Notes: generated by a model not told the origin, from the sequence alone. Counted from the first letter of the stretch, positions 130-12,759 are shown. The stretch: 64,000 nucleotides of DNA from Candidatus Enterousia sp. (GCA_045613785.1 JAZLBQ010000004.1:64001-128000), one strand, 5' to 3'. Translations and numbers: made by a program.

Positions 130-1347
130 ATGAGAAGAATGTTCCCACTTTTTTTTGCATTGTTTTTTTGTGCAACTGCTAACGCAGCACAGTATCGTGC
201 AGCATTGGTTGCAGATATGGACACAGGTCGTGTTTTATACCAAGAAAACGCAAATGAATTAAATTATCCAGCAAGTTTAACAAAAATAATGACATTGTAT
301 TTAACGTTTGATGCGCTGGAACATGGTCGTCTGGCATTAGACGATTATCTGATTGTATCACAGTCTGCCGCAAATGCAGAGCCTGTAAAACTAGGGCTTG
401 CAGCTGGCTCTAAAATTCGGGTCGAAGATGCGATAAAGGCATTGGCTGTTTACAGTGCAAATGACGTTGCACGTGTGTTGGCAGAAAATCTAAAAGGTGG
501 TCAAGAAGAATCCTTTGCAGACTTGATGACCCGTGTCGCACGTGAAATAGGACTGACGAATACGAATTTTGAAAATTCATCTGGTTTGCCAAATGATGAC
601 CATTTATCAACGGCACGTGATATTGCGCTGCTGTCAATGGCGGTATATAAACACTTTCCACAGTATTGGCACTTTTTTGGGATAAAGTCTTGGACATATA
701 ACGGTAAAACATATACAAATGGAAATCGCCTGTTGACGTCTTTTAATGGTTGCGATGGTATGAAGACTGGTTATACAAAGAAATCTAAATATTCACTTGT
801 TGCGACTGCACATCGTAATGGTTCGCATTTGATGTCTGTGGTGTTGGGGGCAGAAAACAAAGACGTTCGTGCCAATGTCGCAGCCCAAATGTTAAATCGT
901 GGTTTTACAATGTTGGGAAATGGTTCGCAGCCAATTGTCAAGAATACACCTGTTGCACCTGTGCAGACGTCGCATCAAACTCAGCCTGCACCGCAACCGT
1001 CATATAATCAGCCGGCGTATAATCAAACAGCGGCAAATCCAACAACATTTGCAGGTGCGTATAATTCTGCAACTGCAAACGCAATGCCAAAATATTCAGG
1101 TGCTGCAATAACCCAGACTGCAACATCGGCGGGTGGAACAGGTGTTCAGTTTGGTGCATTTTCATCTGAATCAGCGGCTCGTTCTCAGGTTGCAAATGTC
1201 AAAAATAAATTGGGTGCAACCGCAGTTGTTGAACCAACAGGCACTGGGCTTTACCGTGTGCGTGTCTATGGTTTGTCTGAATCTGCAGCCCAGAACTTAA
1301 AATCGTCTGCAACTGCAAACGGTATTGACAGTTATGTTTTTCACTAG
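130..1347 (+). CDS. D-alanyl-D-alanine carboxypeptidase (peptidase S11) with C-terminal SPOR domain
   Basis: Signal peptide; PASLTK (SxxK), SAND (SxN), DGMKTG motifs; Q/P-rich linker; SPOR-like VQFGAFSS…YRVRVYG. Confidence 0.92.
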   Translation: MRRMFPLFFALFFCATANAAQYRAALVADMDTGRVLYQENANELNYPASLTKIMTLYLTFDALEHGRLALDDYLIVSQSAANAEPVKLGLAAGSKIRVEDAIKALAVYSANDVARVLAENLKGGQEESFADLMTRVAREIGLTNTNFENSSGLPNDDHLSTARDIALLSMAVYKHFPQYWHFFGIKSWTYNGKTYTNGNRLLTSFNGCDGMKTGYTKKSKYSLVATAHRNGSHLMSVVLGAENKDVRANVAAQMLNRGFTMLGNGSQPIVKNTPVAPVQTSHQTQPAPQPSYNQPAYNQTAANPTTFAGAYNSATANAMPKYSGAAITQTATSAGGTGVQFGAFSSESAARSQVANVKNKLGATAVVEPTGTGLYRVRVYGLSESAAQNLKSSATANGIDSYVFH

Positions 1348-6748: not shown

Positions 6749-7090
6749 TTATTTTAGGTTCAGTTTTTTATACAACGCCTCTGGCGTTTGAATCCATGGG
6801 GATTTTAGTTTTATCATTGTCTTGGTCAACTGCACACAGGTAAAACATAATTCAGTATTTACTGCTGTGTTTAATTGGCCAGCAAAGACCAAGAACTGCC
6901 ACCCGTGCTTTTGCAAGATAAATAAATCACGCAATTTTAATTCTATTTTTTTAATGTTATTGTGCTTTACAAATTGATATAGAATCATTTTGTTTTTATG
7001 AACGTAAATAGGTGCGACGTGCTTAAAATTCTTGCAGAACAGTTTTGCCAAAAATTTATTAGATTTATTTGAAAATGCAATTATAAACAT
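6749..7090 (-). CDS. Hypothetical protein, possible permuted papain-like (His…Cys) fold
   Basis: 113-aa ORF with FKHVA…FTCVQ…IQTPEALYK pattern. Confidence 0.6.
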   Translation of the reverse strand: MFIIAFSNKSNKFLAKLFCKNFKHVAPIYVHKNKMILYQFVKHNNIKKIELKLRDLFILQKHGWQFLVFAGQLNTAVNTELCFTCVQLTKTMIKLKSPWIQTPEALYKKLNLK

Positions 7091-7120
7091 TTTTTTTTGC
7101 CTGTTATTTTGTGTAAAAGC

Positions 7121-7140
7121 AAATCCCCAATCGGGGATTT
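7121..7140. terminator. Hairpin/terminator between the two small hypothetical genes
   Basis: AAATCCCC-aatc-GGGGATTT perfect stem. Confidence 0.6.
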
Positions 7141-7143
7141 TGA

Positions 7144-7488
7144 TTATTCAATCCAGCCACGCTGACGAGCATTTTGTTCCAGTTCACGCATTGCGTTTCG
7201 CCACTGTTCTGCTGCACGATTTTCTGCCCAAATATGTTGATGAGGAGCTCGTCTTTTGTCGCCAAATTTTTTCATTACTACTAATTGTTCTTCGGTCAAT
7301 TTTCCTGCCAGATATAATTTTGTGATCATTGATTCTACATCTAAAATTTCGCATGGTCTGCGTGTTTGAGACGAACGATTCCGCATAAAAGTATTGTTCT
7401 GAACAGCTTTTGAATACAAAAACCAAAACCATAATTGTTCTGCATTTTGAAATTTTTCAGTCTGAATCATAGGCATTGTTTTGGTCAT
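7144..7488 (-). CDS. Hypothetical protein (F..AE..WFWF / RPCE / W..AM..L motifs)
   Basis: 114-aa ORF with strong SD (AAGGAG) upstream; motif pattern recalled from uncharacterised alphaproteobacterial proteins. Confidence 0.75.
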   Translation of the reverse strand: MTKTMPMIQTEKFQNAEQLWFWFLYSKAVQNNTFMRNRSSQTRRPCEILDVESMITKLYLAGKLTEEQLVVMKKFGDKRRAPHQHIWAENRAAEQWRNAMRELEQNARQRGWIE

Positions 7489-7553: not shown

Positions 7554-7754
7554 TAAAACACTACAACCAATGGTTGAAGTTCGAATCGAAAAACAGATTC
7601 GGTTCTGAAAATTGGATTGTGCTTTGCGAATCGAATTTTTTCTTTGTTTCATATTTTTTATAAAAAAAAGTGTGCCAACTGGCACACGGTTTTCTATTTA
7701 TCTTAATCAAAGTCTTATGTGAAATTTTTCTCCTTTGTAAATATTGTTAAATTA

Positions 7755-7780: not shown

Positions 7781-10183
7781 TTACAGAATTGGTGGGAAGC
7801 AATCACCGCCTGTTTCAGGGCAACAGTTAAATCCTTGTTCGCCCATATCGGTGTATATTTCTCCTGGACAGCAACCATTTGCATCTGGTGCAATATCGCC
7901 TTCGCACATTATTTGTTCAACGACTTCCTCGACCGCTGGTTTCTCAGGTTTCTCAAATGGATTTTCAATTGCACCTGTTTCTTCGTCGTATTTCAGGCCC
8001 AACACCTGTTCATTATATGCTTGCTGCCCCTGATCTGCAACATATGCAATACTGTTCTGATTGCTTGTTGATTGCTGATTTTGGAATACAGCTTCCTGCT
8101 TTGCATTATTTATTGCCTTATATTGACTAGACTGGCAATAGAACAACACTGTTCTGTAATCTAGGCCTGCGTTGTATATCTCTTCTGCACTTGCTGTAAC
8201 CTTGCCTGTGCTTAAATCGCAATACTGTGCCAAATTAAATGAACGCACCTGACCAACCCATTCTTCCCCTGACTGGTCAATATTCACAGAGTTTGCAACG
8301 CTATTGTAATTAAACCTATTTTGTTGTAATGATTTACTGTAATAACTTTCCATCTTACAGCTTTTGCCACCGTCTGGACACACAACAATCAAGTCCTCTG
8401 GGGAATAGACTGTGATACGTGTTCCTGCTGCGATTGTAAACGGTGGAACAGTGTTATCCATCATATCGACCAACAGCTTTTGTGCAACCTGATTCCAGGC
8501 AGTAATGATTTCATTTTTTGCCAGTTCTGATGAACGCACAGTTCCACTTTGAACGACTGTGTTGTTGTCCAAATCGATTTGATTTACAAACGCATCGCTG
8601 ACAGGAGCAATCAAATTCACCGCTGCTGGCACAATCGCTGTCAACATTGGCATAATAAATTGTTCCATATAATCAGTGCTGCCACGTCCTGGCACGCCAA
8701 CACGTCCTTGGGCATCACCTGCAAAAGGCTGATTTCCTTGATTGTTAAAGTTAAATTCAACACCATCTGGTCGTATAAACTGATACCAGTTTATTTGCAT
8801 ACGTCCAATTGCCTTGTATGGGCCTGGCAAATCACCTGTCACATATCCCAGCATCAAAGTTCCTGTTGGGATAATAATATTACGTCCGTCGTCTGAATAA
8901 ACGTTTCTATCAACAGTTGCACGAACGGGCAGGGGGCGTCCATTTTTGAAAACTTCTGCATCGGCTCGAACTTCAGATACAATAGTTGCAGGAATTGGCT
9001 TGTATTGACGCAAAATGAAACTGCGGTCATACGGTTGTGATGCAACAACGCCATCACCCGAAGTGCCAAATATTACTTCCGTAGTTTCTTTTAGCTTTAG
9101 TCCACCAAAAGCTTCCATACCGTTTGCAGTCAGGCGACCTGCACCACGACTGTTCATTACGACTGCATTTGCTTCATCCGAGTCCAGTTGGCGTGCACGA
9201 TTTACAACCTTTATTGCAGGTGCATTAGACAGTTCTGGGATTTTGCCATCCCATGTTGCAGCAAAAACGATATGGTCTGCATCTGTTCCTATCTTTTTAC
9301 CTTTGTTATCAGTGATAATACCATTGTCTGGATTGTATGTTCCTGTTGGTTTTTCGCAGTTTTTATCTGAAAATGGGTGAAATTTATATGTTCCACCATC
9401 GGGTTTTATCCAACCGATTTGGACGCCAAAATTATTATAACCTGGGAAAGCAAAGTCCGTGCATCCATCAGGGATTTCAATTTTTTCAGTTTTTGCTGTC
9501 TTTGTCACAGGTTTTTCAATCTTTACTGACGGAGAAATTGTTTCGACGTTCTTTTTAATTTCTTCTTTGACAGGCTCTGGTTCTGGCTTTGCTTCAATCA
9601 CAGGCTCTGGTTCTGGCTCTGGTTCTGGCACGATGACAGGTTCTGGGATTGGCTCAGGTTTTTTTTCAACGACTGGTGAAACAGCCCCCAAGGTCAGAAC
9701 AATTTTCGAAGTCTTTTTCATTGCATCAGTTTCATCTGCTTTGTGCCAGTCAACGAACACAGGAACTTGTTCTGTTGCCATTGGTGCAGTTGGTGCATAT
9801 GAAACAATCACCCCACAGGCTAGATTTTCGTTTATCTGTCCCATTTCAGTGCAAGTTCCTTTGACATCAAATCCCTTGATGTCCTTGTGGCGACGAACAG
9901 AAATCACCTTAACAGGAGCTGTTGCAGAAATCTTGATTGTTTCAGTTTTTTTCTGTCCGATTGTCGTTTCTGCCCAGTTTATCATATCAGGGGAAATGAC
10001 AATATCTACTGATCCGCTATCAGTGCTAGAAATATCTGATTTGCTTGATTTTTTATTATTTCCACTCAGCAGCAAGGTCAACAATATCAGCACCACAACA
10101 AATGCAGCCGCCATCAACAACCACTGCACCCGTTTTGGTGTATTTTGTCGCATTTCTGAAAACTGTTCTTTGAAACTAGCCAT
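7781..10183 (-). CDS. virB10: VirB10/TrbI-family type IV secretion core protein with extra domains
   Basis: N-terminal TM, PEPEP linker, TrbI-type motifs IPATIVSEV…RNVYSDDGRNIIIPTGTLMLG…DAQGRVGVPG…PPFTIAAGTRITVY; Cys-rich C-terminus. Confidence 0.8.
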   Translation of the reverse strand: MASFKEQFSEMRQNTPKRVQWLLMAAAFVVVLILLTLLLSGNNKKSSKSDISSTDSGSVDIVISPDMINWAETTIGQKKTETIKISATAPVKVISVRRHKDIKGFDVKGTCTEMGQINENLACGVIVSYAPTAPMATEQVPVFVDWHKADETDAMKKTSKIVLTLGAVSPVVEKKPEPIPEPVIVPEPEPEPEPVIEAKPEPEPVKEEIKKNVETISPSVKIEKPVTKTAKTEKIEIPDGCTDFAFPGYNNFGVQIGWIKPDGGTYKFHPFSDKNCEKPTGTYNPDNGIITDNKGKKIGTDADHIVFAATWDGKIPELSNAPAIKVVNRARQLDSDEANAVVMNSRGAGRLTANGMEAFGGLKLKETTEVIFGTSGDGVVASQPYDRSFILRQYKPIPATIVSEVRADAEVFKNGRPLPVRATVDRNVYSDDGRNIIIPTGTLMLGYVTGDLPGPYKAIGRMQINWYQFIRPDGVEFNFNNQGNQPFAGDAQGRVGVPGRGSTDYMEQFIMPMLTAIVPAAVNLIAPVSDAFVNQIDLDNNTVVQSGTVRSSELAKNEIITAWNQVAQKLLVDMMDNTVPPFTIAAGTRITVYSPEDLIVVCPDGGKSCKMESYYSKSLQQNRFNYNSVANSVNIDQSGEEWVGQVRSFNLAQYCDLSTGKVTASAEEIYNAGLDYRTVLFYCQSSQYKAINNAKQEAVFQNQQSTSNQNSIAYVADQGQQAYNEQVLGLKYDEETGAIENPFEKPEKPAVEEVVEQIMCEGDIAPDANGCCPGEIYTDMGEQGFNCCPETGGDCFPPIL

Positions 10184-10201
10184 CCCTCAAATCCACTAAT
10201 T

Positions 10202-11758
10202 TTATTGCATTCTTACAACGCTACAACTTGTTCCGCTAAATTTTAACAACTTGTCGCATAATGTTTGTGCTGTGTCAATATCTGCCAATGGGCCAATACG
10301 CAAGCGATACTGGCGTGCTGTTGTTGAGTCTGCACCTAATTCTCCGACACCTTGTTCATCAACTGCAAAGAAAACCATATTTTTATAAGGTGTCAACAAT
10401 CCTTGACCATTTTCACCGCTGAATTTAGCCAACAACATTGTCCAATAATCGTCCAAGGCCTTGACAGAAGTATCTGATTTTAATTCTACGGCAACACCAA
10501 CCTGATTACTTGAAATCAGTGGGATGTTGGTTTGTGGTAAATAAGCCCCTGCTGTATTTCGTTGTGTTGGCAACATGTTTACAACACTTCCTGACGAGCG
10601 AGGCATTGTCTGTGGTGCAGTAAATCCTGCTGGCATATAATATCCTGCACCAGTTGTCTGATTGACAGTTTGATTATTTTCAACGAATACAGGTGTCCCG
10701 GTATATGGTGTTCCCATACTCATTGCAGCCATACTGTCAGTATATGCGATGTTGCTTAGTGATTGTCCAGACAGCATACTCTGTGCAACATTTGCCTCTG
10801 CCAGTGCCATCACAGATGCGGTATCAGCAATCAAGAACGGTTTTTCACGTTTTTTGATGCAAACAATACGTTGTCCGCTACGCAGAACCATATCGCCCAC
10901 GGCCTCTACAATCAACAAGCGACCGTCTTCACCATCTGTGCGGAATCCAACAGGAGATTCGCCACCTTCTACCAACAGTGAAACAACAGGGCGTTGCGTC
11001 ATTGCGATAACCTTGTCGCCAAAATCAATGTATGTGAAGATACGATCACGCCAAACACGCTCTGGTGCGATTACATAGTCGTCTGGGTTTGGAACAAAGA
11101 TGTCTAAATCGAAACGAAATTCCGAAGGATCGATTTTCATTGATTTAATCCAGCCATAGTCTTCGCCATCAACACCGACTGTATTTGTTGCGTTGCTTGA
11201 AGTTGCGGCCTTTTTGAATATAGAACTTGCCCCACCAGAAACAGGAACGTTTCCTGCGGTTGGCAGTGCAACATTGCCGTCCAGGACTACATCGACTTGT
11301 GAATATGTAATTTCACTGGAATTAGATGGTTCGCTACGCAAATAGAAGATATATTTATTTCCTGATTTGCCTGTTACAATCATATTAGTATCAGACCCTT
11401 GGTTAGAACCGACTGGTGAAATAAACATTGTCTGACCGCCCTGAGTCGCATCAATGTCAAACAAGTCTTGGTTTCCAACCATTGCATCTGCAATCTGTTC
11501 ACCATTTGGCAATGTAACCATAGTTACCATTCCATTACGCAGTTTGATTGGTAAAACACTGCCTGCAGACCAAGCCAACTGTGCATATCCTGGTTTTGTG
11601 CTACCGCTGGCCATATTTGCCATTGGGTTATCCCATGCCTCTTGCACACCGTATTCTGTTATTGCAGAATATGCCGGCAACGTCAACAGACCTGCCAGGC
11701 AAAAAACAGACATATTAAATCTTAGTGCTTTTACGAAACTCATACCAATCCTTCCCAT
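10202..11758 (-). CDS. virB9: VirB9/TrbG-family type IV secretion protein with C-terminal SPOR-like domain
   Basis: Signal peptide; TMVTLPNGEQI, TNMIVTGKSGNKYIFYL, IAPERVWRDRIFTYIDF; C-terminal YRLRIGPL…C…C. Confidence 0.8.
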   Translation of the reverse strand: MGRIGMSFVKALRFNMSVFCLAGLLTLPAYSAITEYGVQEAWDNPMANMASGSTKPGYAQLAWSAGSVLPIKLRNGMVTMVTLPNGEQIADAMVGNQDLFDIDATQGGQTMFISPVGSNQGSDTNMIVTGKSGNKYIFYLRSEPSNSSEITYSQVDVVLDGNVALPTAGNVPVSGGASSIFKKAATSSNATNTVGVDGEDYGWIKSMKIDPSEFRFDLDIFVPNPDDYVIAPERVWRDRIFTYIDFGDKVIAMTQRPVVSLLVEGGESPVGFRTDGEDGRLLIVEAVGDMVLRSGQRIVCIKKREKPFLIADTASVMALAEANVAQSMLSGQSLSNIAYTDSMAAMSMGTPYTGTPVFVENNQTVNQTTGAGYYMPAGFTAPQTMPRSSGSVVNMLPTQRNTAGAYLPQTNIPLISSNQVGVAVELKSDTSVKALDDYWTMLLAKFSGENGQGLLTPYKNMVFFAVDEQGVGELGADSTTARQYRLRIGPLADIDTAQTLCDKLLKFSGTSCSVVRMQ

Positions 11759-11771
11759 TTTTTATGTTGTT

Positions 11772-12443
11772 TTATTCTGTCTCACGAAAACCTGTATTTA
11801 AAGGGTCTCCATTGTCAGATATAACCTTGTATTCAGATACACGCAGTCCCAATGGATTTTCGATACGGTCTGCCCATTTGATTTGCGTTTTATCATTATC
11901 TTCTAATTTCAACTTTATTGTATAATCTTTTGTGATTGTATGTCCAGCATTATCAGTGCAGAAATATCTAAATTTTACCTGATATTGATCTTCGCTTGCC
12001 AAATATATCGGTGCACCATCAAAAATAACAGGGCATTGAAACTCAAAGTCAGGCATTCCTGCCATCATTGCGATGAACATATCGGTGTTTGCAAACTCGC
12101 CATAAACAGCATCTGTTGACATAATGCGAACTGCACCGTCGTTGCTGTTCCATTTTTTATGCATTGCCTTGGCATTTGTGAAAACTTCGTTTCTGTGTTG
12201 GATATATTCACGAACAAAGGCTTTTTTGTATCGATCCAGATTTTCGCTTTTTGGTTGCATTTGAATCAATCGAACGTCTTGGTCGTCACGGACAGCGGTT
12301 GCCAAAAAGAACACTTGTGGACGATTCAATGGGAACATTTTTACCAGTGTCACAGTCATTACGCCTAACGTCACCAAAGCAGCAGCCAGCACAAAAGTCA
12401 TCAGTCTGGATAATAAAATTGGTGGTTGTATGCGGTTCTGCAC
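11772..12443 (-). CDS. virB8: VirB8-like type IV secretion protein
   Basis: N-terminal TM ending in FPL; FVREYIQHRNE, VRIMST..VYGEF, ENPLGLRVSEY; first of the B8-B9-B10 order. Confidence 0.8.
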   Translation of the reverse strand: MQNRIQPPILLSRLMTFVLAAALVTLGVMTVTLVKMFPLNRPQVFFLATAVRDDQDVRLIQMQPKSENLDRYKKAFVREYIQHRNEVFTNAKAMHKKWNSNDGAVRIMSTDAVYGEFANTDMFIAMMAGMPDFEFQCPVIFDGAPIYLASEDQYQVKFRYFCTDNAGHTITKDYTIKLKLEDNDKTQIKWADRIENPLGLRVSEYKVISDNGDPLNTGFRETE

Positions 12444-12685
12444 GATGTTCCTCTCTCTTTAATTAAAGTGATTGTAGAAAAAAACAAATAGTCTGTGCAA
12501 GAAAAAATTTGCAATAACAAAAAACTAAAACAGGAAAAGTTATAAAAGGTGTTAAAAATATAGTTGCAAGGTAAAGAGAAAAATATTATAATATTTCCAC
12601 TTGATTTTTTATATAAGTGTGCTATTCTGTCGCAGACTATTATGGTGGTGTGCGGCACATCGACAGGTATCAGATATGAACACAC

Positions 12686-12759
12686 AGGGGCATAGTTCAA
12701 CGGTAGAATATCGGTCTCCAAAACCGCGGATGAGGGTTCGATTCCTTCTGCCCCTGCCA
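12686..12759 (+). tRNA. trnW: tRNA-Trp (CCA)
   Basis: AGGGGCA/TGCCCCT acceptor stem, CTCCAAA anticodon loop, GGTTCGATTCC T-arm, encoded CCA; canonical position before secE. Confidence 0.97.

What the first reader, a model, noticed from the sequence alone, without database searches (positions are those of the whole stretch)
7781..12443. Stand-alone, domesticated and remodelled VirB8-VirB9-VirB10 type IV secretion core
Seen: three co-oriented genes in B8-B9-B10 order with 13-18 nt spacers and their own terminator, transcribed divergently from tRNA-Trp-secE. No virB4/B11/D4, relaxase, integrase or att repeat is nearby. Known: canonical VirB9 (~270 aa) and VirB10 (~380 aa) are far shorter than the 518 and 800 aa here; Rickettsiales rvh genes are split into chromosomal islets; the Cag and Dot/Icm systems have enlarged cores. 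Inference: this is the core of a lineage-specific expanded T4SS used for host/prey interaction or DNA uptake. It is the best candidate for an undescribed system in this window.
Basis: partly seen in the sequence, partly recalled or inferred. Interest (0 to 1): 0.78.

Follow-up and report, generated by a model that had tools for sequence, protein, structure and literature searches.

The report
Remodelled secretion-machine core in gut symbiont
These three genes encode the envelope-spanning core of a type IV secretion machine whose other parts lie scattered around a tiny gut-bacterium genome, and every relative examined keeps it, so it may be how these uncultured, metabolically dependent bacteria deal with partner cells.

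Summary
virB8 (223 aa), virB9 (518 aa) and virB10 (800 aa) lie head to tail on the minus strand at 7781-12443. They are separated by 13 and 18 nt, end in a terminator hairpin, and diverge from tRNA-Trp-secE-nusG.

The cluster is not stand-alone. The 1.04-Mb genome (Candidatus Enterousia, order Rs-D84) also holds virB3-virB4, virD4, virB11 and a tandem array of divergent VirB6-like membrane proteins at other places. No relaxase was found with three Pfam families.

The system is vertically inherited:
- VirB10 was found in 300 of 301 genomes of the order.
- VirD4 was found in 41 of 41 and VirB4 in 21 of 21.
- The same synteny holds in the 80 loci examined.

In a quick VirB4 tree the order's sequences form one group. 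That group sits inside a clade of MobA/MobL-bearing T4SS loci on alphaproteobacterial megaplasmids.

The core is remodelled:
- VirB9 carries a C-terminal SPOR-like domain.
- VirB10 carries an Ig-like domain, a conserved middle domain and a C-terminal extension.
- The extension ends in a cysteine-rich ~45-aa module that also ends three other envelope proteins.

My reading is a domesticated, dispersed, relaxase-less T4SS that most likely exports substrates to a partner cell. The function is inferred. I file it as a new variant of a known kind.

The parts
11772..12443 (-). virB8, 223 aa, GTG start; N-terminal TM helix followed by the VirB8 domain
   Evidence: Pfam VirB8 E 8e-11, residues 13-207. 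An ortholog was found in 74 of 80 related loci.
10202..11758 (-). virB9, 518 aa. Layout: signal peptide, N-terminal domain (residues 56-162), C-terminal core domain (195-340), variable linker (341-410), SPOR-like domain (411-518).
   Evidence: Pfam CagX E 5.4e-22. An ortholog was found in 78 of 80 loci at 66-98% identity.
11273..11593 (-). VirB9 N-terminal beta-sandwich domain (residues 56-162)
   Evidence: Model pLDDT is 78-88 here. VIA-align gives Z 13.8, rmsd 2.0, 102 residues aligned to VirB9 of the Xanthomonas citri T4SS core (6gyb_b), and Z 11.2 to the F-plasmid outer-membrane core complex (7spb_C1).
10739..11176 (-). VirB9 C-terminal core domain (residues 195-340), the best-conserved stretch of the operon
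   Evidence: 116 of 146 columns are invariant in 23 sequences, with mean identity 95.5%. It is covered by the CagX match. The monomer model is not confident here (pLDDT under 35).
10205..10528 (-). SPOR-like C-terminal domain of VirB9 (residues 411-518), with a conserved cysteine pair at C501 and C512
   Evidence: Pfam SPOR matches 23 of 23 aligned orthologs at E <= 0.01, best 9e-7. The window's own protein scores 19.2 bits, below the cut-off of 21. The fold matches the RlpA SPOR domain 6i0n_A (Z 8.8, rmsd 2.4, 77 of 77 residues) and CwlC 1x60 (Z 6.7). The region is present in 5 of 5 genomes of the five other families of the order.
7781..10183 (-). virB10, 800 aa. Layout: cytoplasmic tail and TM helix (1-40), Ig/ASH-like domain (58-171), Pro/Glu-rich spacer (172-238), middle domain (239-330), linker, TrbI barrel domain (386-598), C-terminal extension (599-751), Cys-rich module (752-800).
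   Evidence: Pfam TrbI E 2.2e-17, residues 392-598. NCBIfam T4SS_VirB10 E 3.3e-16. 898 homologs were found, and the 120 listed are 774-824 aa long.
9671..10012 (-). VirB10 periplasmic Ig-like (ASH/PapD/MSP-type) beta-sandwich, residues 58-171
   Evidence: Model pLDDT is 79-88. VIA-align gives Z 11.3 to the CEP192 ASH domain 6fvi_A and Z 11.0 to the VesB Ig-like domain 4lk4_A. This is a generic fold match and says nothing about function.
9194..9469 (-). VirB10 middle domain, residues 239-330, beta-rich, with invariant C241 and C276
   Evidence: 32 of 92 columns are invariant, mean identity 72%. pLDDT is 65-79. No Pfam family matches. It aligns in VirB10 of 4 of 4 other-family genomes examined.
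8390..9028 (-). VirB10 TrbI barrel domain with two long helices (505-536 and 551-576) where known VirB10 proteins carry the outer-membrane antenna
   Evidence: Pfam TrbI model positions 3-186 of 188 are matched. Profile A1 hits CagY at E 3.1e-6 and ComB10 at E 4.3e-3 among solved chains. Mean identity is 87%. The helices come from a low-confidence part of the model, and the antenna assignment is recalled.
7784..7930 (-). Cys-rich C-terminal module (residues 752-800, six conserved cysteines, ending in CFPP plus two residues)
   Evidence: 25 of 49 columns are invariant. The same module ends three other ORFs of this genome: E 2.2e-22, 6.1e-12 and 2.9e-8 in a six-frame hmmsearch. 150 short proteins carry it, and all the named ones are MAG Alphaproteobacteria or Pseudomonadota. 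No Pfam or NCBIfam family matches.
7931..8389 (-). VirB10 C-terminal extension, residues 599-751, with conserved cysteines C602, C609, C655 and C683
   Evidence: 18 of 153 columns are invariant, mean identity 48%. It is not aligned in VirB10 of the four other-family genomes or of the two plasmid relatives.
7755..7775 (-). Intrinsic-terminator-like hairpin directly after the virB10 stop codon
   Evidence: Read from the sequence: a 9-bp stem with 6 G-C pairs and a 3-nt loop, followed by an A/T-rich tail. The scan lists this hairpin on the plus strand only.
7670..7687 (-). Second terminator-like hairpin, followed by a T8 run
12471..12499 (-). Candidate sigma-70-like promoter upstream of virB8, in the 242-nt gap to tRNA-Trp
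   Evidence: 9 of 12 consensus positions match. The scan found 19 such sites where shuffles give 15.8, so this is weak.
12686..12759 (+). tRNA-Trp(CCA), transcribed divergently; first gene of the secE-nusG-rplKA block
   Evidence: ARAGORN and Rfam tRNA at 63.3 bits.
7144..7488 (-). orf114, a conserved 114-aa neighbour of unknown function, downstream of the terminators
   Evidence: Found in 74 of 80 loci at 46-97% identity, in the same place and orientation. No Pfam family and no Atlas family. A functional link to the T4SS is not shown.
6749..7090 (-). orf113, a conserved 113-aa neighbour of unknown function
   Evidence: Found in 70 of 80 loci at 27-78% identity. Its only Pfam hit is weak: DUF1374, E 0.0019, below the cut-off.

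Best explanation
The three genes encode the envelope-spanning scaffold (VirB8, VirB9, VirB10) of one chromosomal P-type (VirB/VirD4-like) type IV secretion system of Candidatus Enterousia. The common ancestor of the order Rs-D84 took this system from a conjugative element of the kind still seen on alphaproteobacterial megaplasmids. It then lost the relaxase, and the operon broke into islets: virB8-9-10 here, with virB3-virB4, virD4, virB11 and a VirB6-like array elsewhere. Every lineage examined has kept it since. Shown: gene identity, dispersal, universality in the genomes sampled, the added domains and their conservation. Inferred mechanism: VirB10 spans the periplasm from the inner membrane, and with the VirB9 C-terminal domain it forms the outer-membrane ring. 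The SPOR-like domain of VirB9, on a long linker, ties the ring to peptidoglycan. It may take over the stabilising role that a VirB7 lipoprotein plays in other systems; I did not look for one systematically. The Ig-like, middle and cysteine-rich C-terminal parts of VirB10 add extra periplasmic or surface layers. VirB4, VirB11 and VirD4 power substrate export. With VirD4 universal in the order and no relaxase found, the most likely cargo is protein or another macromolecule delivered to a partner cell on which this biosynthetically poor bacterium depends.
For: Identity of the three genes: Pfam matches above gathering scores, and the VirB9 N-terminal domain matches a solved T4SS core at Z 13.8. 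One system: G000 has a single VirB4 (809 aa) beside VirB3, one VirD4 (749 aa) and one VirB11-like ATPase (331 aa). VirB4, VirB9, VirB10, VirB11 and VirD4 each find their counterpart in the contiguous Erythrobacter and Microvirga plasmid operons at 28-41% identity. VirB6: five tandem polytopic ORFs at C4:28810-35420 have no Pfam family, and three of them are paralogs. The Atlas gives a lead to a cluster in which 49% of members carry TrbL, at score 0.93. Of 19 distant full-length relatives found with profile A3, 5 match TrbL, two of them above the cut-off, and no other family recurs. Vertical inheritance: VirB10 in 300 of 301 order genomes, 223 of 223 high-quality ones and 29 of 29 genera; VirD4 in 41 of 41; VirB4 in 21 of 21. 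The gene order L11-NusG-SecE | VirB8-9-10-orf114-orf113 | YidC-LspA holds in the 80 loci; of these, VirB9 was found in 78, VirB8 in 74 and SecE in 69, and several of the loci that lack a gene end within a few kb of virB10. The 11 Rs-D84 VirB4 rows form one group with SH-aLRT 100. No relaxase was found with PF03432, PF08751 or PF03389. Added domains are conserved: SPOR-like 81%, middle domain 72%, Cys module 76% mean identity. A DsbA-like gene is present, which fits disulfide-rich periplasmic domains. Contigs from one gut RNA library bridge both gene junctions; this is weak, because such a library can hold DNA. Lifestyle: in the passages I read of PMC12306168, Rs-D84 genomes lack the upper part of glycolysis, the TCA cycle, respiration, most biosynthesis and standard importers, and the authors propose dependence on a partner.
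Against: No substrate, effector or partner organism is known, so the export function is inferred only from the parts list. No VirB2 pilin was found: PF04956 gave no match at E <= 1, and there is no suitable ORF upstream of virB3. VirB5, VirB1 and VirB7 were not found or not searched for. The VirB6 assignment is indirect: hhalign of the family against the protein at the VirB6 position of the Erythrobacter operon gave nothing. The genome is a 26-contig assembly that is 96.5% complete, so absences are not proven, and virB11 lies 523 nt from a contig end. The structure models of the core parts are poor: mean pLDDT is 50.9 and 48.7, and the TrbI domain and the VirB9 C-terminal domain are under 50. 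Other relaxase families were not searched. The tree is a quick search, rooted at the midpoint, with no rvh, ComB, Cag or Dot/Icm rows.
Confidence: 0.6

Rival explanations
1. It is still a DNA-transfer (conjugation or DNA-release) machine. An undetected relaxase or a relaxase-independent route moves chromosomal DNA between Enterousia cells.
For: The closest T4SS loci found are in operons that include a MobA/MobL relaxase and a DnaB-like helicase on plasmids. VirD4 is a coupling protein of the conjugative kind: T4SS-DNA_transf E 3.2e-54 and TrwB_AAD_bind E 2.8e-19.
Against: No match to PF03432, PF08751 or PF03389 in the genome. The genes are dispersed among housekeeping genes and fixed in position across the order. 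That is not how a mobile element behaves.
Confidence: 0.12
2. It imports DNA or other macromolecules (ComB-like) to feed a cell that cannot make nucleotides.
For: NCBIfam ComB10 matches VirB10 at E 7.3e-12, and ComB10 is one of only three solved chains hit by the VirB10 profile. Rs-D84 genomes lack nucleotide biosynthesis according to the abstract of PMC12306168.
Against: The T4SS_VirB10 model scores higher than the ComB10 model, 59.4 against 45.1 bits. VirD4 and a VirB11-like ATPase are present and conserved. From recall, the Helicobacter ComB system works without them.
Confidence: 0.12
3. It is a contact-dependent weapon against other gut bacteria, like the bacteria-killing T4SS of Xanthomonas.
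For: The best structural match of the VirB9 N-terminal domain is the Xanthomonas citri bacteria-killing T4SS core, at Z 13.8. The organism lives in a dense bacterial community.
Against: That match reflects the shared VirB9 fold and is not evidence of closer kinship. In the VirB4 quick tree a Xanthomonas plasmid VirB4 groups with the Agrobacterium type, away from Rs-D84. I did not search for toxin-immunity pairs or for XVIPCD-type effectors.
Confidence: 0.1
4. The core has lost secretion and now serves as an envelope scaffold or adhesin platform. The ATPases would then be kept for another role.
For: No pilin was found. VirB9 and VirB10 carry wall-binding and Ig-like additions. The Cys-rich module is shared with other envelope proteins that have no link to secretion.
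Against: VirB4, VirB11, VirD4 and the VirB6-like proteins are all intact, and those searched across the order were in every genome examined. This is hard to explain without a working translocation channel.
Confidence: 0.06

Closest known systems
T4SS loci with a MobA/MobL relaxase gene on alphaproteobacterial megaplasmids (Erythrobacter aureus NZ_CP031358, Microvirga sp. VF16 pMVF16-3 NZ_CP069357, Sphingosinicella sp. NZ_CP035502); PLSDB types the first two non-mobilizable and the third mobilizable
   Same: They hold the closest VirB4 in the plasmid collection, at 31-33% identity (E down to 4e-122), where the next hits are about 25%. VirB9, VirB10, VirB11 and VirD4 also match at 28-41%. In the quick tree VirB4 falls in the same clade with SH-aLRT 100. 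Their VirB9 is also long (432 and 550 aa), and its C-terminal end aligns weakly with the SPOR-like end here: hhalign E 6.8e-5 over 33 columns for Erythrobacter, and E 0.088 for Microvirga.
   Different: They are contiguous operons with a MobA/MobL relaxase, a VirB2 pilin and a VirB5-like gene. Here the genes are dispersed on the chromosome, and no relaxase or pilin was found. Their VirB10 (529 and 590 aa) aligns only over the TrbI domain (Microvirga also over about 45 residues before it), so it lacks the Ig-like domain, the middle domain and the Cys-rich extension. Pfam does not call SPOR in their VirB9.
Rickettsiales vir homolog (rvh) T4SS
   Same: It works alike in layout: a chromosomal, vertically inherited P-type T4SS of a reduced-genome alphaproteobacterium, split into islets, with a tandem array of VirB6-like paralogs and no conjugative relaxase. 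The rvh features are recalled from the literature.
   Different: Only one VirB4 and one VirB9 were found here, against the duplicated copies recalled for rvh. The islets are cut differently: virB11 and virD4 are not beside virB10. The VirB9 SPOR-like domain and the VirB10 extensions are not features I know from rvh. Phylogenetic kinship could not be tested, because no rvh sequences were on hand.
Expanded-core systems: Helicobacter Cag (CagX, CagY) and Legionella Dot/Icm
   Same: VirB9 and VirB10 homologs are enlarged. CagY is the best solved-chain match of the VirB10 profile, at E 3.1e-6.
   Different: The match covers only the TrbI domain. From recall, the CagY and DotG enlargements are N-terminal repeats, and those systems add dedicated extra ring proteins. 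Here the additions are an Ig-like domain, a middle domain and a C-terminal Cys-rich extension on VirB10, and a SPOR-like domain on VirB9. I did not search for extra ring components.
SPOR domains of cell-division and cell-wall proteins (RlpA, CwlC, FtsN, DamX)
   Same: The C-terminal 108 residues of VirB9 have the same beta-alpha-beta-beta-alpha-beta arrangement. They match RlpA SPOR at Z 8.8 over 77 of 77 residues and Pfam SPOR in 23 of 23 orthologs.
   Different: The domain is fused to a secretion-system ring protein where known SPOR domains sit on division or wall-hydrolase proteins. The window's own score is below Pfam's cut-off, at 19.2 against 21 bits. Glycan binding is untested. A full-text search for 'VirB9' together with 'SPOR domain' found 0 papers.

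Membership tests
P-type (VirB/VirD4-like) type IV secretion system | VirB4 ATPase | tested here: met
   PF03135 scores 46.8-50.3 bits (cut-off 21) in an 809-aa ORF at C26:60031-62460. It is 31-33% identical to plasmid VirB4 over 94-95% of its length.
P-type (VirB/VirD4-like) type IV secretion system | Core scaffold of VirB8, VirB9 and VirB10 | tested here: met
   All three Pfam families match above their gathering scores. The VirB9 N-terminal domain matches a solved T4SS core at Z 13.8.
P-type (VirB/VirD4-like) type IV secretion system | VirB11 ATPase and VirD4 coupling protein | tested here: met
   The VirB11-like 331-aa ORF matches T2SSE at E 9.4e-23 and is 39-41% identical to plasmid VirB11. 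VirD4 matches PF02534 at E 3.2e-54 and was found in 41 of 41 order genomes.
P-type (VirB/VirD4-like) type IV secretion system | VirB3 and VirB6 inner-membrane parts | tested here: inconclusive
   VirB3: PF05101 scores 27.6 bits, above the cut-off of 23.9, directly upstream of virB4. VirB6: PF04610 gives no direct match. The support is indirect and comes through distant relatives (5 of 19 match TrbL, 2 above the cut-off) and an Atlas lead.
P-type (VirB/VirD4-like) type IV secretion system | VirB2 pilin (and VirB5 tip protein) | tested here: inconclusive
   PF04956 gave no match at E <= 1 in a 96.5%-complete genome. No pilin-like ORF lies upstream of virB3. Short, divergent pilins are easily missed. 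VirB5 was not searched for.
Conjugative (DNA-transferring) T4SS / integrative conjugative element | Relaxase encoded with the system | tested here: not met
   PF03432, PF08751 and PF03389 gave no match at E <= 1. Other MOB families were not searched, and the genome is 96.5% complete.
Conjugative (DNA-transferring) T4SS / integrative conjugative element | Patchy distribution, flanking repeats or foreign base composition | tested here: not met
   Present in 300 of 301 genomes of the order, in fixed synteny, with G+C like the rest of the contig and only chance-sized repeats.
Rickettsiales vir homolog (rvh) | Genes split into chromosomal islets with a tandem VirB6-like array | tested here: met
   The islets lie on C4, C26 and C3. 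Genes that share a contig are 36-43 kb apart in G000 and 55-72 kb apart in G001. A tandem array of five polytopic ORFs is present; their VirB6 kinship is indirect.
Rickettsiales vir homolog (rvh) | Duplicated VirB4, VirB8 and VirB9 genes (recalled feature) | tested here: not met
   One VirB4, one VirB9 and one VirB10 match in the genome. The only second VirB8 match is weak and partial: 21.1 bits, below the cut-off, at C7:91605-92309.
Rickettsiales vir homolog (rvh) | Common descent with rvh genes (phylogeny) | not testable with these tools
   No named rvh sequences could be obtained. The tree holds only Rs-D84 and plasmid rows.
ComB-type DNA-uptake T4SS | Works without VirD4 and VirB11 (recalled feature) | tested here: not met
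   Both are present and conserved. The ComB10 model scores lower than the VirB10 model.
SPOR domain (PF05036) | Sequence match to the family model | tested here: inconclusive
   23 of 23 orthologs match at E <= 0.01, best 9e-7. The window's protein reaches 19.2 bits, below the cut-off of 21, and only over model positions 38-76.
SPOR domain (PF05036) | Beta-alpha-beta-beta-alpha-beta fold | tested here: met
   VIA-align gives Z 8.8, rmsd 2.4, 77 of 77 residues to RlpA SPOR 6i0n_A, and Z 6.7 to CwlC 1x60.
SPOR domain (PF05036) | Binding to denuded peptidoglycan glycan strands | not testable with these tools
   This needs a binding assay with amidase-treated sacculi.

The most novel reading that the evidence does not exclude
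Enterousia and its kin have rebuilt a plasmid-derived T4SS into a lineage-specific, wall-anchored contact apparatus. It would work together with a set of periplasm-spanning proteins that share one disulfide-rich C-terminal docking module (VirB10, a 733-aa bitopic protein and small exported proteins) and with a type IVb pilus. With this apparatus an epibiotic or parasitic gut alphaproteobacterium would attach to partner cells and tap them. That would make Rs-D84 a proteobacterial counterpart of the Patescibacteria lifestyle, with the T4SS as its key organ.
Probability: 0.2. Interest if true: 0.85.

Novelty: new variant of a known kind. Interest (0 to 1): 0.58.

Why it matters
Rs-D84 and Enterousia are widespread, uncultured gut bacteria. 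Their genomes are about 1 Mb and cannot support independent growth, and nobody knows what they live on or with. The one paper in the library that analyses their genomes (PMC12306168) does not contain the word 'secretion'. A complete, universally retained, relaxase-less T4SS is the most concrete molecular handle on their way of life. It predicts contact with a partner cell and gives targets for imaging, for effector hunting and for enrichment. For secretion-system biology, it offers a second, independent case of a conjugative P-type system that was domesticated and scattered in a reduced alphaproteobacterial genome. It also shows new ways of enlarging the core: a VirB9-SPOR fusion and a VirB10 with a shared cysteine-rich terminal module.

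Tried and rejected
- Complex prediction on the VirB10 TrbI domain (386-620) with the VirB9 C-terminal domain (195-340) gave no verdict: score 0.25 against a mark of 0.32. It says nothing either way.
- Full-length AlphaFold models of VirB10 and VirB9 were poor (mean pLDDT 50.9 and 48.7). Only the Ig-like domain, the middle domain, the VirB9 N-terminal domain and the SPOR-like part could be used. The fold searches were filled by those domains, so the middle domain, the C-terminal extension and the Cys module remain untested for known folds.
- hhalign of the VirB6-like family A3 against the protein at the VirB6 position of the Erythrobacter operon found nothing (E 0.32). P0311 against the same protein also found nothing. 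phmmer of the family against solved chains gave 0 hits.
- Pfam does not call SPOR in the Erythrobacter or Microvirga VirB9.
- The search of earlier findings was not open. The 2023 Enterousia paper (doi 10.1134/S0026261723603780) is not held, so I cannot say whether it mentions secretion genes.
- Literature searches without result: 'Rs-D84' plus 'type IV secretion' gave 0 papers, and 'VirB9' plus 'SPOR domain' gave 0 papers. PMC13558222 mentions Enterousia once and does not contain 'T4SS' or 'type IV secretion'.
- orf114 and orf113 have no family and no shown link to the T4SS beyond conserved position. General synteny is high in these genomes, so position alone is weak evidence.
- RNA evidence: only 1 of the 3 listed runs holds the stretch, with a word share of 0.34. 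Parts of the stretch had no cover, and that proves nothing.
- The careful maximum-likelihood tree did not finish within the time limit, so only the quick tree is reported.
- I considered a recently acquired mobile element and rejected it: the distribution is universal and the position is fixed.

Full report
**Observation.**
Three ORFs fill 7781-12443 on the minus strand: 11772-12443 (223 aa), 10202-11758 (518 aa) and 7781-10183 (800 aa). They are separated by 13 and 18 nt. Pfam assigns them to VirB8 (E 8e-11), CagX/VirB9 (E 5.4e-22, residues 60-303) and TrbI/VirB10 (E 2.2e-17, residues 392-598), all above the gathering scores. The NCBIfam equivalog models match only far below their cut-offs, so these are divergent members.

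A G+C-rich hairpin follows the virB10 stop codon. A second hairpin with a T8 run lies 70 nt further on. Upstream, across a 242-nt gap, lie tRNA-Trp, secE, nusG, rplK and rplA on the other strand. Downstream lie two small conserved ORFs, then yidC and lspA.

**Organism and inheritance.**
The window is part of a 1,044,118-bp assembly of 26 contigs, 96.5% complete. Full-length VirB10 homologs are very numerous: 898 hits, and the 120 listed are 774-824 aa long. A scan of species-representative genomes found 256 loci that encode a relative. The record titles name Candidatus Enterousia and unnamed gut Alphaproteobacteria MAGs.

In the 80 loci kept, the gene order L11-NusG-SecE | VirB8-VirB9-VirB10-orf114-orf113 | YidC-LspA recurs. 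The counts of 80 are: VirB10 80, VirB9 78, VirB8 74, orf114 74, orf113 70, SecE 69, NusG 68, L11 61, YidC 57, LspA 55. Several of the loci that lack a gene end within a few kb of virB10.

Across the order:
- VirB10 was found in 300 of 301 genomes, in 223 of 223 high-quality ones and in 29 of 29 genera.
- VirD4 was found in 41 of 41 genomes.
- VirB4 was found in 21 of 21 genomes.

G+C of the cluster equals that of the contig. Only chance-sized repeats flank it. This is a vertically inherited chromosomal system and does not behave like a mobile element.

**The rest of the machine.**
The cluster is not stand-alone. The same genome holds:
- virB3-virB4 at C26:60031-62753;
- virD4 at C26:105735-107984;
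- a VirB11-like ATPase at C3:523-1518.

Genes that share a contig are tens of kb apart. The same is true in another family of the order: in G001, VirD4, VirB9 and VirB4 lie at about 54, 109 and 181 kb of one contig.

Pfam TrbL (VirB6) gives no match in the genome. I then screened the polytopic membrane proteins: 47 candidates, of which I scanned the 40 not already scanned or 37 and not lying in the window or in locus L102. The screen showed five tandem ORFs at C4:28810-35420 with no Pfam family. Three of them are distant paralogs.

The evidence that these are VirB6-like is indirect:
- The Atlas points to a cluster in which 49% of members carry TrbL, at score 0.93.
- A profile of the 497-aa member found only 85 relatives among 1.84 billion representatives.
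- Of 19 full-length distant relatives, 5 match TrbL, two of them above the cut-off, and no other family recurs.

I read the array as divergent VirB6 paralogs, with moderate confidence.

Not found in the genome: a VirB2 pilin and relaxases of three Pfam families.

**Nearest relatives.**
Among 72,556 plasmids, three stand out by VirB4: Microvirga sp. VF16, Erythrobacter aureus and Sphingosinicella sp., at 31-33% identity with E down to 4e-122. The next hits are about 25% identical.

The first two carry contiguous operons. Both hold a MobA/MobL relaxase, a DnaB-like helicase, VirB2, a VirB3 or VirB3-sized ORF, VirB4, further ORFs, VirB8, VirB9, VirB10, VirB11 and VirD4. The further ORFs include a Pfam-supported VirB5-like protein in Erythrobacter.

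Enterousia VirB4, VirB9, VirB10, VirB11 and VirD4 each match their counterpart there at 28-41% identity. So the scattered genes descend from one operon of this type.

In a quick maximum-likelihood VirB4 tree of 20 rows:
- the 11 Rs-D84 sequences from six families form one group (SH-aLRT 100);
- that group sits inside a clade (SH-aLRT 100) with these plasmids and an Azospirillum plasmid;
- the Agrobacterium Ti, Xanthomonas, Mesorhizobium, Sphingomonas and Nitrosospira VirB4 lie apart.

The careful search did not finish, the root is a midpoint, and no rvh, ComB, Cag or Dot/Icm rows were available.

**Remodelling of VirB9.**
VirB9 is the best-conserved protein of the locus.
- Its N-terminal domain (56-162) is modelled with confidence. 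It matches VirB9 of the Xanthomonas citri core at Z 13.8, rmsd 2.0, 102 residues.
- Its C-terminal core domain (195-340) is 95.5% identical on average over 23 species, but it does not fold as a monomer model.
- After a variable 70-residue linker comes a 108-residue domain with a beta-alpha-beta-beta-alpha-beta order. This domain matches the RlpA SPOR domain (Z 8.8, 77 of 77 residues) and CwlC, and it matches Pfam SPOR in 23 of 23 orthologs (best E 9e-7; the window's own protein is just below the cut-off).
- The region is present in all five other families of the order that I sampled.
- It aligns weakly with the C-terminal end of the Erythrobacter plasmid VirB9 (E 6.8e-5 over 33 columns). The fusion may therefore predate domestication, but Pfam does not call SPOR there.

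**Remodelling of VirB10.**
VirB10 has the usual N-terminal tail, TM helix, Pro-rich spacer and complete TrbI domain. It also has three additions:
- an Ig/ASH-like sandwich at 58-171 (pLDDT 79-88; Z about 11 to many Ig-like domains, which is a generic match);
- a conserved middle domain at 239-330 (72% identity, two invariant cysteines);
- a 200-residue C-terminal extension that holds ten of the protein's fourteen cysteines, all ten invariant in the 22 aligned sequences.

The last 49 residues form a module with six conserved cysteines, ending in CFPP plus two residues. A six-frame hmmsearch finds this module at the extreme C-terminus of three other ORFs of the genome:
- an 80-aa exported protein;
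- a 195-aa exported protein;
- a 733-aa bitopic protein whose long acidic, Pro-rich periplasmic tail ends in the module.

150 short proteins in the public collection carry the module, and all the named ones come from Alphaproteobacteria or Pseudomonadota MAGs. No Pfam or NCBIfam family covers it. A DsbA-like gene is present.

In four genomes of other families of the order, VirB10 is 623-758 aa and shares the middle domain. In three of the four the alignment also reaches into the N-terminal part. None shares the extension or the module. The additions were therefore acquired stepwise, the last within the Enterousia family.

**Expression.**
One gut metatranscriptome run holds a third of the sampled words. 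Its near-identical contigs bridge the virB10/virB9 and virB9/virB8 junctions: 669 nt with 2 differences, and 330 nt with 1 difference. This fits an expressed operon. It is weak evidence, because the data are contigs from a library that may contain DNA.

**Function.**
The parts list, its integrity and its universality are shown. The mechanism is inferred.
- VirB8, VirB9 and VirB10 build the envelope-spanning scaffold.
- The SPOR-like domain would tie the outer ring to peptidoglycan.
- The VirB10 additions would form extra periplasmic or surface layers.
- VirB4, VirB11 and VirD4 would drive export.

VirD4 is conserved and no relaxase was found. Published passages report that these bacteria lack most biosynthesis, the upper part of glycolysis, respiration and ordinary importers, and that they probably depend on a partner (PMC12306168, passages read). 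Rs-D84 MAGs also occur in flagellate-free termites, so the partner need not be a flagellate (PMC11257099, passages read).

On this basis, delivery of substrates to a partner cell is the most likely use. I put it at about 0.5-0.6. DNA transfer, DNA uptake, bacterial killing and a purely structural role remain open.

**Novelty.**
Public MAG annotations already label some of these genes as TrbI/VirB10 family proteins, so the family assignment itself is not new. I found no paper that describes a T4SS in Rs-D84 or Enterousia, or a VirB9-SPOR fusion. One relevant subscription paper could not be read. I file the finding as a new variant of a known kind: a domesticated, dispersed P-type T4SS with a novel core architecture, in a lineage whose biology is unknown.

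Noticed in passing
G000 contig C4:28810-35420 (about 29 kb before the window start; loci L130-L134): Five adjacent polytopic membrane ORFs (431, 497, 395, 422 and 439 aa), four in tandem on one strand and the fifth divergent, with no Pfam family. Three are distant paralogs. Indirect evidence points to divergent VirB6/TrbL.
   Followed up: yes
G000 C26:28815-29057(-), C26:29079-29666(-) and C3:106208-108409(+) (loci L150, L149; P0330): Three further ORFs end in the same cysteine-rich ~45-aa module as VirB10. The 733-aa one has a cytoplasmic coiled coil, one TM helix and a long acidic, Pro-rich periplasmic tail, which is a TonB-like or VirB10-like topology.
   Followed up: partly
G000 C26:112446-117119 (locus L100:8446-13119): A type IVb-pilus-like cluster: a PilO-like protein (PF06864, E 7e-9), a 235-aa coiled-coil protein, a T2SSE ATPase (545 aa) and a T2SSF platform protein. 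TolC-like and HlyD-like genes lie just upstream, and virD4 lies 4.5 kb before those.
   Followed up: partly
G000 C7:91605-92950 (locus L102:5605-6950): Directly after bamA lie two small bitopic ORFs (234 and 213 aa). The first gives a weak, partial VirB8 match (E 1.8e-4, below the cut-off). It could be a VirB8-like paralog or an unrelated NTF2-like envelope protein.
   Followed up: no
G000 C26:55296-57292 (locus L099:1296-3292): Two adjacent paralog-looking glycine-rich ORFs (327 and 334 aa) with no Pfam family, 3-5 kb downstream of virB4 and beyond the rfb-like genes.
   Followed up: no
window 6749-7488 (-): orf114 and orf113 are conserved in the same place and orientation downstream of virB10 in 74 and 70 of 80 loci. 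No family was found for either. They lie beyond two terminator-like hairpins, so they are probably separate transcripts.
   Followed up: partly
window 130-1347 (+): A D-alanyl-D-alanine carboxypeptidase with a clear C-terminal SPOR domain (Pfam E 3e-9). SPOR domains above Pfam's cut-off are therefore in use in this cell wall.
   Followed up: no
G000 C3:7564-8085(-): A DsbA-like thioredoxin-fold gene (PF13462, E 4.3e-18) lies about 6 kb from virB11. It fits the many conserved cysteines in VirB10 and in the proteins that carry the module.
   Followed up: partly
G000 C16:9867-12893(-) (locus L106): A 1008-aa membrane ORF on a low-G+C contig (0.37). It has only weak Pfam hints: tape-measure at E 0.005 and FtsK/SpoIIIE at E 0.025. 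This may be mobile or phage-derived DNA.
   Followed up: no
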